Positions 56,667 through 57,170 of a DNA stretch of 64,000 bases are shown here, piece by piece. The translations under genes were made by a program, and so were the position numbers. The notes beneath the pieces are model-generated. The model saw nothing but the letters and a program-made list of their open reading frames with translations, did not search any database and was not told the origin of the DNA. Numbering within the stretch: the stretch's first letter is position 1; every line of letters begins with the position of its first letter. Origin of the DNA: Thermoproteota archaeon (GTDB lineage: Archaea > Asgardarchaeota > Njordarchaeia > Njordarchaeales > Panguiarchaeaceae); assembly GCA_024720975.1 (NCBI GenBank), contig JANJXX010000002.1, positions 1-64,000 on the forward strand, given 5' to 3'.

Positions 56667-56903
56667 TTAAGATTTCCTCTCCATATCGCCGTAAGCGCTT
56701 CTAAACCATCTATGTTCGTATAGAATTATAGCATCTATTAACTCTAAATGCGCGAGAAACATTCTTCGACAGCACTCTTTTTTCACACCTAAGCTATCAA
56801 GTACTAGCCCGGGATCTTCTCCTGCCTTTACCCTCGCAGCAAATTTTTCCCAGAGGTGACCGATCATTTCACCACAACTAAAGCACCTTATAGGGATGAT
56901 TAT
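56667..56903 (-). CDS. rpoN: RNA polymerase subunit Rpo10 (N); ATA start
   Basis: ATA-ATC-ATC-CCT-ATA-AGG-TGC-TTT-AGT-TGT-GGT = (M)IIPIRCFSCG; LD.LG...CCRRMFL.H. Confidence 0.95.
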   Translation of the reverse strand: MIIPIRCFSCGEMIGHLWEKFAARVKAGEDPGLVLDSLGVKKECCRRMFLAHLELIDAIILYEHRWFRSAYGDMERKS

Positions 56904-57170
56904 TTTTGTTCACCTTAGCGCTATTGTAACGACATTTGCTTGTTAACTTACAGTTAGCAAATCCTTATCATATTGGCTTTGATATTATAAAAAGAATGCA
57001 CCTTCTAAACTACTTATTCATTTAAAAGCATTCAATAGGTTTGTTGACAACTGACTGATAGTTATAGTTAATAGTACGTCGAATCATTGACTTTGGTTCG
57101 AATATCGAAATGTTCCCCCTTAAATTTGAATAAGCAATGAGTACACTTTGCATTATATTGGTGTGCCTTC

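What the first reader, a model, noticed from the sequence alone, without database searches (positions are those of the whole stretch)
56667..56915. rpoN starts at ATA: evidence for AUA initiation
Seen: the conserved Rpo10 N-terminus MIIPVRCFxCG is encoded as ATA-ATC-ATC-CCT-ATA-AGG-TGC-TTT-AGT-TGT. ATA sits exactly at the Met1 position, an in-frame TGA lies three codons upstream, and no ATG/GTG/TTG is available. GGTGA lies 6 nt before the ATA, the same spacing as at atpK, Mak16, pfdB, rpl37ae and SBDS. The downstream ATG (56867) would delete the Zn-binding CxxC. The internal ATA encodes the usual Ile/Val position, so this is initiation rather than codon reassignment. Inference: this organism initiates a core polymerase gene at AUA, suggesting relaxed start-codon selection.
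Basis: partly seen in the sequence, partly recalled or inferred. Interest (0 to 1): 0.8.

Follow-up and report, generated by a model that had tools for sequence, protein, structure and literature searches.

The report
rpoN starts at an ATA codon
In this hot-spring Asgard archaeon (Njordarchaeales) the single-copy gene for RNA polymerase subunit Rpo10 has no ATG/GTG/TTG start and most likely begins at ATA just after a strong ribosome-binding site, as do about 2% of its genes, which many gene finders therefore cut short.

Summary
On the minus strand, AGGTGA (56915-56910) is followed by 6 nt and then ATA (56903-56901). This ATA opens a 78-codon RNA_pol_N ORF. The TGA of the GGTGA is in frame, and the first canonical codon is ATG at codon 13, after the CxxC.

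It is not an assembly error. Contigs from four studies read ATA. All four congeners have ATT or ATA at the same codon behind GGTGA, and two of them also have the in-frame TGA. Other Njordarchaeales families have ATG there. Codons 2-12 show 47 synonymous against 18 conservative differences, so the region is translated. Only one rpoN copy was found.

The habit is wider than rpoN. atpA (ATT), an M42 peptidase and a metallophosphoesterase (CTG), and Rpp29, an MFS transporter and DUF424 (ATA) show it too. A homology test gives about 2% of genes. A sister family and an Odin-like genome show similar cases.

The initiator tRNA, aIF1 and the t6A enzymes look ordinary, so no mechanism for relaxed selection was found.

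NCBI nr already holds the 78-aa product; JGI, ENA and Logan hold the 66-aa truncation. This scan has noted the same habit in other Asgard and Bathyarchaeia genomes. There is no direct translation evidence.

The parts
56910..56915 (-). Shine-Dalgarno-like AGGTGA. Its TGA (56912-56910) is the in-frame stop that closes the frame upstream of rpoN.
   Evidence: sequence. GGTGA followed by 6 nt and a start codon is the dominant layout genome-wide: 57 of 85 such ORFs. All five species of the genus have GGTGA 5-6 nt before the Met1-position codon.
56901..56903 (-). ATA, the proposed initiation codon, at the position of Met1 in homologues.
   Evidence: Congeners have ATT, ATT, ATT and ATA at this codon; other families have ATG or TTG. 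Contigs of four studies agree on ATA. NCBI nr holds a 78-aa product beginning with M at this codon.
56667..56903 (-). rpoN (Rpo10 / RNA polymerase subunit N) coding sequence: 78 codons plus the stop at 56669-56667.
   Evidence: Pfam RNA_pol_N E 1.1e-27. It is the only copy found in the genome. Zn ligands CxxC (codons 7 and 10) and CC (KKECCRRM) are present.
56865..56867 (-). First canonical in-frame start (ATG, codon 13). It is used by Prodigal-type annotations and would remove the CxxC.
   Evidence: A 66-aa product from this ATG is in JGI/ENA/Logan. This codon is GTT or GTC in two congeners, so it is not a conserved start.
56983..56993 (-). TTTTTATAATA, a possible archaeal TATA box about 80 nt upstream of the ATA. 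If used, the mRNA would have a leader that contains the SD.
   Evidence: Read. This is inference only; no transcript-end data were available.
56057..56653 (-). rps2, the next gene on the same strand. It has an ATG start 4 nt after a GGTGA.
   Evidence: Pfam Ribosomal_S2.

Best explanation
rpoN of this Njordarchaeales archaeon is translated from a leadered mRNA. A strong Shine-Dalgarno site (A)GGTGA pairs with the 3' end of 16S rRNA and places the codon 6 nt downstream, AUA, in the P site. That near-cognate codon is read by the ordinary initiator Met-tRNA (anticodon CAU, mismatch at the third codon position). The result is a normal 78-residue Rpo10 beginning Met-Ile-Ile-Pro.

What is shown:
- the sequence layout and its reproducibility across assemblies;
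- conservation of AUH (ATA, ATT or ATC) plus the SD across the genus;
- protein-level constraint on codons 2-12;
- the same layout at other conserved genes.

What is inferred:
- that the initiator tRNA reads AUA and that the first residue is Met;
- that the strong SD compensates for the weak codon;
- that the leader includes the SD.

The gene is one case of a lineage habit. About 2% of genes start at AUA, AUU, AUC or CUG behind GGTG-type SD sites.
For: 1. Layout.

2. Not an error: four assemblies from four studies are identical at 56901.

3. Genus conservation, SD and Met1-position codon:
- own genome AGGTGA-N6-ATA;
- G003 AGGTGA-N6-ATT;
- G004 AGGTGA-N6-ATT;
- G002 AGGTGA-N5-ATT;
- G001 GGGTGA-N6-ATA.
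The own genome, G003 and G004 have the in-frame TGA and no canonical codon. Seven loci from three other families of the order have ATG at that codon.

4. Translation of the N-terminus: 47 synonymous against 18 conservative (I/V, E/A) pairwise codon differences in codons 2-12. Pro, Arg, Cys, Phe, Ser, Cys and Gly are invariant as residues while their codons vary.

5. Single copy.

6. SD-positioned near-cognates genome-wide. At 6 nt after GGTGA, 9 of 23 non-canonical codons are near-cognate, against 10 of 90 at 3 or 9 nt (Fisher p = 0.003).

7. Pfam domains begin upstream of the first canonical start in:
- atpA (ATT);
- an MFS transporter (ATA);
- an M42 peptidase (CTG);
- a metallophosphoesterase (CTG);
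- Rpp29 (ATA);
- DUF424 (ATA).

8. Orthologues have ATG or TTG exactly where this genome has CTG in the M42 peptidase and the metallophosphoesterase. Congeners have ATA/ATC where this genome has ATT in atpA.

9. A homology test that ignores the SD: 22 of 542 genes have at least 6 conserved residues upstream of the first canonical start. About 9-11 of these are convincing, and 7 of the 9 best have GGTG 5-7 nt before a near-cognate codon. Among genes with homology-supported canonical starts, 22% have such a GGTG.

10. NCBI nr carries the 78-aa form.
Against: - There are no N-terminal peptide, ribosome-profiling or transcript-end data.
- The read check used contigs, not raw reads, and two of the four runs may be the source of the assembly.
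- The second and third codons are also AUH, so the exact start could be 3 nt further on.
- In G002 the GTG inside GGTGA is in frame, and in G001 an ATG lies two codons upstream of the ATA. In those two species a canonical start cannot be excluded.
- Several other genome-wide candidates (hypF, a pantoate-kinase-like gene, dppB, metRS) have the SD's GTG in frame and are ambiguous.
- The 16S 3' end is not in the MAG, so the anti-SD sequence is assumed from general archaeal knowledge.
Confidence: 0.8

Rival explanations
1. Sequencing or assembly error: the true codon is ATG.
For: It is a single-base difference from ATG, and the source is a metagenome-assembled genome.
Against: Contigs of four runs from four studies all read ATA with no differences. 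Four other species have ATT or ATA at the same codon.
Confidence: 0.02
2. Translation starts at the first canonical codon (ATG 56867), giving a 66-residue protein without the CxxC, or the gene is decaying.
For: Prodigal-type callers annotate exactly this product; a 66-aa form is in JGI/ENA/Logan.
Against: - It would delete two of the four Zn ligands of a single-copy core polymerase subunit.
- Codons 2-12 are under protein-level constraint.
- Codon 13 is GTT or GTC in two congeners, so it is not a conserved start.
Confidence: 0.03
3. Initiation is non-canonical but at the neighbouring AUH codon (ATC at 56900-56898, 9 nt after the SD) rather than at the ATA.
For: Codons 1-3 are all AUH or GUH in the genus. 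The Pfam model match begins at the second Ile.
Against: The SD spacing of canonical starts peaks at 5-7 nt, and few lie at 9 nt. Homologues place Met at the first of the three codons.
Confidence: 0.1
4. The real start is the GTG inside GGTGA. It is in frame in some relatives, and in this genome it would be reached by a +1 shift on the A-run.
For: - G002 rpoN, three congeners' atpA, and the Odin-like and G016 rpoN genes have that GTG in frame, three codons upstream.
- This genome has AACAAAAAT between the GTG and the ATA.
Against: - In this genome, G003 and G004 the GTG is out of frame.
- G003 (AACAGAAAT) and G004 (AAC TAG, a stop two codons after the GTG) have no slippery run.
- The GTG has no SD of its own.
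- GGTGA-N6-ATG/TTG is the standard layout in 57 genes, which shows the motif acts as an SD.
Confidence: 0.03
5. ATA is reassigned to Met, as in some mitochondrial codes.
For: ATA sits at a Met position.
Against: The internal ATA at codon 5 aligns to Ile/Val in all relatives. ATA, ATT and ATC interchange at codons 1-3 and 5. ATT and CTG starts occur too.
Confidence: 0.01

Closest known systems
Non-canonical bacterial initiation triplets AUU/AUC/AUA (for example E. coli infC and pcnB AUU starts), listed as starts in NCBI table 11
   Same: A near-cognate codon with the central U sits behind an SD and is presumably read by initiator tRNA. Such triplets are described as found in bacteria and discriminated against by IF3 (PMC4611024). 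The infC and pcnB examples come from my own knowledge.
   Different: - Here the organism is an archaeon, whose fidelity factor is aIF1 rather than IF3.
- The codon is conserved across a genus in a core polymerase subunit and in atpA.
- The frequency is about 2% of genes, not a handful.
- There is no sign of infC-like autoregulation: aIF1 itself starts at TTG, ATG or GTG.
Archaeal start-codon usage as reviewed (AUG, GUG, UUG) and near-cognate initiation sites seen by ribosome profiling in Haloferax volcanii
   Same: SD-led archaeal mRNAs. About 30% of putative alternative initiation sites in H. volcanii were near-cognate codons (PMC7261190).
   Different: - The review lists only AUG, GUG and UUG as archaeal starts (PMC7531240).
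- The Haloferax near-cognate sites were set aside by the authors and were alternative sites, not the sole start of essential genes.
- Here the near-cognate codon is the only possible start of the main ORF.
Eukaryotic near-cognate (CUG, ACG, AUA and others) initiation controlled by eIF1
   Same: The codon set is the same, and the machinery is homologous (aIF1/eIF1, aIF2/eIF2). The organism is an Asgard archaeon.
   Different: Selection here is guided by an SD, not by scanning. No aIF1 change was linked to it. The resemblance is only analogy at present.
Earlier notes of this scan on other Asgard and Bathyarchaeia genomes (e1-5470356, e1-5421681, e1-5245486 and others)
   Same: They also report ATT, CTG, ACG or ATA starts behind strong SD motifs in a few percent of genes, truncated by gene finders.
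   Different: Those are other genomes and AI notes that I did not re-test. They suggest the habit is widespread rather than special to this genus.

Membership tests
Rpo10 / RpoN (Pfam RNA_pol_N, PF01194) | Significant match to the family profile over its whole length | tested here: met
   E 1.1e-27, 96.4 bits against a cut-off of 26.9; profile positions 1-57 of 58.
Rpo10 / RpoN (Pfam RNA_pol_N, PF01194) | Zn-binding CxxC near the N-terminus plus a CC motif | tested here: met
   Cys7 and Cys10 (RCFSCG) and KKECCRRM are in the translation. They are present only if translation starts upstream of codon 7.
Rpo10 / RpoN (Pfam RNA_pol_N, PF01194) | Single essential copy per archaeal genome | tested here: met
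   One match in the genome, which is 81% complete. 40 of 41 related genomes have one match.
SD-led near-cognate (non-NUG) start codon | No in-frame ATG/GTG/TTG between the upstream stop and the conserved N-terminus | tested here: met
   The same holds in G003 and G004.
SD-led near-cognate (non-NUG) start codon | SD motif at the spacing used by canonical starts of the same genome | tested here: met
   The spacing here is GGTGA plus 6 nt. 57 of 85 GGTGA-bounded ORFs have ATG/GTG/TTG at exactly this spacing.
SD-led near-cognate (non-NUG) start codon | Codon one mismatch from AUG, conserved as such in related species | tested here: met
   ATA, ATT, ATT, ATT and ATA in the five species of the genus.
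SD-led near-cognate (non-NUG) start codon | Protein N-terminus (Met) mapped to that codon, or a ribosome footprint on it | not testable with these tools
   No proteomic or ribosome-profiling data. The RNA runs found hold almost none of the stretch.
ATA reassigned to Met | Internal ATA codons align to conserved Met columns | tested here: not met
   Internal ATA (codon 5) aligns to Ile/Val. ATA, ATT and ATC interchange.
infC-type autoregulatory weak start | The weak start lies on the gene of the fidelity factor that discriminates against it | tested here: not met
   aIF1 of the genus starts at TTG, ATG or GTG. rpoN has no known role in start selection.

The most novel reading that the evidence does not exclude
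Njordarchaeales, and perhaps Asgard and related uncultured archaea in general, tolerate AUA, AUU, AUC and CUG as sole start codons of essential genes (rpoN, atpA, SRP54, metRS) at a percent-level frequency whenever a strong SD is present. These codons persist and interchange with ATG and TTG over speciation. That would mean archaeal start-codon proofreading by aIF1 is markedly looser in these lineages than in model prokaryotes, and that their proteomes are systematically mis-annotated.
Probability: 0.5. Interest if true: 0.7.

Novelty: new member of a known kind. Interest (0 to 1): 0.5.

Why it matters
Practical consequences:
- Prodigal does not consider ATA, ATT or CTG starts (PMC2848648).
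- Most MAG annotations therefore truncate or lose these proteins. The 66-aa Rpo10 without its Zn site sits in JGI, ENA and Logan beside NCBI's 78-aa form.
- That distorts the protein families, structures and phylogenies built for Asgard archaea.

Biological consequences:
- A single-copy polymerase subunit and the A-ATPase catalytic subunit have kept a non-NUG start throughout a genus.
- This shows that such codons can be stable, functional starts in archaea, where reviews list only AUG, GUG and UUG (PMC7531240).
- It offers defined natural leaders for testing how aIF1 and the SD duplex set start-codon stringency in the lineage closest to eukaryotes.

Tried and rejected
- **Missing or altered initiation machinery.**
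  - aIF1 (PF01253) is present in all five species of the genus and in 19 of 21 relatives.
  - The initiator tRNA is canonical: A1:U72, three G-C pairs, CAU anticodon, with an intron.
  - The t6A enzymes Sua5 and Kae1 are present.
  - None of this explains relaxed selection.
- **Autoregulation through a weak aIF1 start.** aIF1 starts are canonical.
- **Loose SD definition.** With any 5-mer of AGGAGGTGATC and all ORFs, there was no significant ATA enrichment; the signal was swamped by spurious and antisense ORFs. Only the strict GGTGA test and the homology test were informative.
- **16S 3' end.** It was not found in the MAG.
- **Genus specificity.** 11 of 542 genes here against 2 of 268 in the sister-family genome G009 is not significant (p = 0.24). 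I do not claim the habit is genus-specific.
- **RNA evidence.** The only RNA runs listed hold 0.07 or 0.00 of the sampled words.
- **Literature searches.** Njordarchaeales plus start codon gave no papers. Searches on archaeal AUA/AUU/CUG starts gave nothing directly relevant.
- **+1 frameshift from the SD's GTG.** Rejected because G003 and G004 lack any slippery run.

Full report
**1. What is in the sequence**

On the minus strand the sequence reads A-GGTGA (56915-56910), then ACAAAA, then ATA (56903-56901), then ATC ATC CCT ATA AGG TGC TTT AGT TGT GGT GAA ATG.
- The stop-to-stop ORF is 56667..56909. Its upstream boundary is the TGA inside GGTGA.
- From the ATA the ORF encodes 78 residues with a full-length RNA_pol_N match (E 1.1e-27). 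Both Zn-ligand pairs are present: CxxC at residues 7 and 10, and CC in KKECCRRM.
- No ATG, GTG or TTG lies in frame before ATG 56867, which is codon 13.
- Reading through the TGA does not help. The frame upstream has no canonical start back to a TAA.

**2. Is it an error?**

- Logan contigs of four runs from four studies of hot-spring metagenomes (2017, 2022, 2023, 2024) cover 56901 without any difference. Two of the runs may be the source of the assembly, and contigs hide rare variants, so this is good but not final evidence.
- The comparative evidence is stronger. Only one rpoN was found in this genome, which is 81% complete. All four other species of the genus carry an AUH codon at the Met1 position behind GGTGA:

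| Genome | SD and spacer | Met1-position codon | Frame note |
|---|---|---|---|
| own | AGGTGA-acaaaa | ATA | TGA in frame |
| G003 | AGGTGA-acagaa | ATT | TGA in frame |
| G004 | AGGTGA-actaga | ATT | TGA in frame |
| G002 | AGGTGA-agaaa | ATT | the SD's GTG is in frame |
| G001 | GGGTGA-atgaaa | ATA | an ATG directly abuts the SD |

- Seven loci from three other families of the order all have ATG at this codon.
- Across the genus, codons 2-12 show 47 synonymous against 18 conservative pairwise codon differences. Pro, Arg, Cys, Phe, Ser, Cys and Gly are invariant as residues while their codons vary. The stretch is therefore translated.
- Codon 13, the 'downstream ATG', is GTT or GTC in two congeners, so it is not a conserved start.

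**3. Who is it?**

- The closest public records are MAGs named Candidatus Njordarchaeota.
- Same-phylum relatives include a 1,418,269-bp single-contig genome. From memory I take this to be the closed Odinarchaeum genome.
- The genome here is 1.36 Mb in 29 contigs, with 40% GC.

**4. Is rpoN alone?**

I tested this in two ways before consulting earlier notes.

*(a) SD-anchored test.*
- Of 85 ORFs of at least 80 codons whose upstream stop is the TGA of a GGTGA, 57 have ATG/GTG/TTG exactly 6 nt after the motif. This establishes GGTGA-N6 as the standard ribosome-binding layout.
- Of the other 28, 11 have a near-cognate codon there.
- With a stricter filter, 9 of 23 non-canonical codons at spacing 6 are near-cognate, against 10 of 90 at spacings 3 and 9 (p = 0.003).
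- Pfam shows that the domain begins upstream of the first canonical codon in these genes:

| Gene | Proposed start | Domain begins at residue | First canonical codon at residue |
|---|---|---|---|
| atpA | ATT | 6 (β-barrel) | 19 |
| MFS transporter | ATA | 13 | 47 |
| M42 peptidase | CTG | 45 | 74 |
| metallophosphoesterase | CTG | 3 | 23 (a start there would delete the DxH motif) |
| Rpp29 | ATA | 13 | 37 |
| DUF424 | ATA | 16 | 20 |

- Orthologues in the genus have TTG, ATG, TTG and ATG at the codon where this genome's M42 gene has CTG. For the metallophosphoesterase they have ATA, ATG and ATG. For atpA they have ATA, ATC and ATA where this genome has ATT; there the SD's GTG is in frame, and a sister family uses TTG.

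*(b) SD-blind homology test.* I compared stop-to-stop ORFs with 400 kb from each of a congener (G004), a sister family (G009) and the Odin-like genome (G014).
- 22 of 542 genes with alignments that reach the N-terminus have at least 6 conserved residues upstream of their first canonical codon.
- About 9-11 of these are convincing, which is roughly 2%.
- 7 of the 9 best have GGTG 5-7 nt before a near-cognate codon. Among genes with homology-supported canonical starts the figure is 22%.
- The reciprocal test gives the following:

| Genome | Genes with at least 12 conserved residues upstream of the first canonical codon | Examples |
|---|---|---|
| G004 | 5 of 271 | SRP54 at CTG |
| G009 | 2 of 268 | metRS at ATC |
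| G014 | 1 of 95 | a CinA-like gene at ATC |

- The habit is therefore not demonstrably genus-specific (p = 0.24).

**5. Mechanism**

- The layout fits SD-guided placement of a near-cognate codon in the P site, read by the initiator tRNA.
- I found no altered component:
  - The initiator tRNA is canonical.
  - aIF1 is present and itself starts canonically.
  - Sua5 and Kae1 are present.
- TTG is unusually common among homology-supported starts: ATG 47%, TTG 28%, GTG 25%. Among canonical starts behind an SD the shares are about 51%, 35% and 14%. This is consistent with generally tolerant start selection but does not prove it.
- Alternatives:
  - Truncated product.
  - Start at the neighbouring AUH codon.
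  - GTG in the SD with a frameshift.
  - Codon reassignment.

  These are weighed under rival explanations. Only 'the neighbouring AUH codon' retains appreciable probability.

**6. What is known**

- AUU, AUC and AUA starts are described in bacteria and are discriminated against by IF3 (PMC4611024). To my knowledge NCBI table 11 lists them.
- For archaea, a recent review names only AUG, GUG and UUG (PMC7531240).
- Ribosome profiling in Haloferax found about 30% near-cognate codons among alternative initiation sites but set them aside (PMC7261190).
- Prodigal does not consider ATA, ATT or CTG (PMC2848648).
- Public databases show both annotations. NCBI nr has the 78-aa Met-Ile-Ile-Pro form, and for the M42 peptidase it has 347-aa and 300-aa forms that also imply non-canonical starts. 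JGI, ENA and Logan have the 66-aa and 274-aa truncations.
- I found no paper on start codons in Njordarchaeales or other Asgard archaea.
- This scan has noted the same habit before. First-reader notes on other parts of this genome cover atpA, M42, the metallophosphoesterase, DUF424, PadR and hypF. Follow-up reports cover other Asgard, Bathyarchaeia and Caldarchaeales genomes. Those are unchecked AI notes, and my gene list was derived independently of them.

**7. Verdict**

- It is a new, well-conserved member of a known kind (non-NUG start codons). It sits in a lineage and in genes where this has not been described in the literature I could search, but NCBI's annotation already captures it and this scan has seen it repeatedly.
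- Direct evidence of translation is lacking.

Noticed in passing
window 41182-42264 (-), ATA at 42247-42249: A 360-codon ORF has no canonical start for 55 codons. GGTGG-gcggaa-ATA sits at codon 6, and the N-terminal stretch aligns to the G004 orthologue, which has a canonical start. This is probably another ATA start.
   Followed up: partly
window 34704-35525 (-): The ORF after rpl37ae, which an earlier first-reader note calls DUF2110-like, is open for 61 codons before its first canonical start. Residues from about 18 onward align to the G004 orthologue. No SD motif was found, so the start codon is unresolved; translational coupling to rpl37ae is possible.
   Followed up: partly
G000 C19:120020-121837 (-) = L032:121-1938: atpA starts at GGTGA-N6-ATT with the TGA in frame. 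Congeners have ATA, ATC and ATA at that codon, but with the SD's GTG in frame. The sister family uses TTG.
   Followed up: yes
G000 C11:94764 (+) and C11:83190 (-) = L035, L036: The M42 peptidase and the metallophosphoesterase begin at CTG, 6-7 nt after GGTGA, exactly where orthologues have ATG, TTG or ATA.
   Followed up: yes
G000 C11:164042 (-), C25:80928 (+), C26:31119 (-), C6:534 (-): hypF, a pantoate-kinase-like gene, dppB and metRS show (T)AGGTG-N-near-cognate layouts in which the GTG of the SD is itself in frame. Whether they start at the GTG or at the near-cognate codon cannot be told.
   Followed up: partly
genome-wide (G000): TTG is an unusually frequent start. It makes up about 28% of homology-supported first canonical starts and about 35% of canonical starts behind an SD.
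   Followed up: partly
G000 C11:280354-280700 (+); L076-L083: aIF1 of the Njordarchaeales genomes examined has a Lys-rich N-terminal tail. It lacks the N-terminal CxxC...CxC zinc knuckle seen in the aIF1 of another Asgard genome (G020, L077). The aIF1 of this genome starts at TTG.
   Followed up: no
G000 C11 c[249000-249113]: The initiator tRNA gene carries a 35-nt intron. Two other tRNA genes with a CAU anticodon are present, one of them with a 36-nt intron.
   Followed up: partly
G004 C1:133851 (+); G009 C1:289092 (+); G014 C1:373010 (+), C1 (-) 300034 and 366987: Other Asgard genomes show the same kind of start:
- SRP54 at CTG (G004);
- metRS at ATC after GGAGGTGA (G009);
- a CinA-like gene at ATC, a HIT-like gene at ATA and an SDR at ACG (Odin-like G014).
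Gene names are from reading the N-terminal sequences, not from Pfam. The two minus-strand G014 coordinates are reverse-complement offsets within the 400-kb piece.
   Followed up: partly
window 55109-56056 (-): The S6e-domain protein is 315 residues long. The Ribosomal_S6e domain covers residues 36-162, followed by a C-terminal extension of about 150 residues.
   Followed up: no
window 56670-56903 (-) in public databases: Two annotations of the same gene coexist: 78 aa in NCBI nr and 66 aa in JGI/ENA/Logan. The M42 peptidase has 347-, 300- and 274-aa versions.
   Followed up: yes
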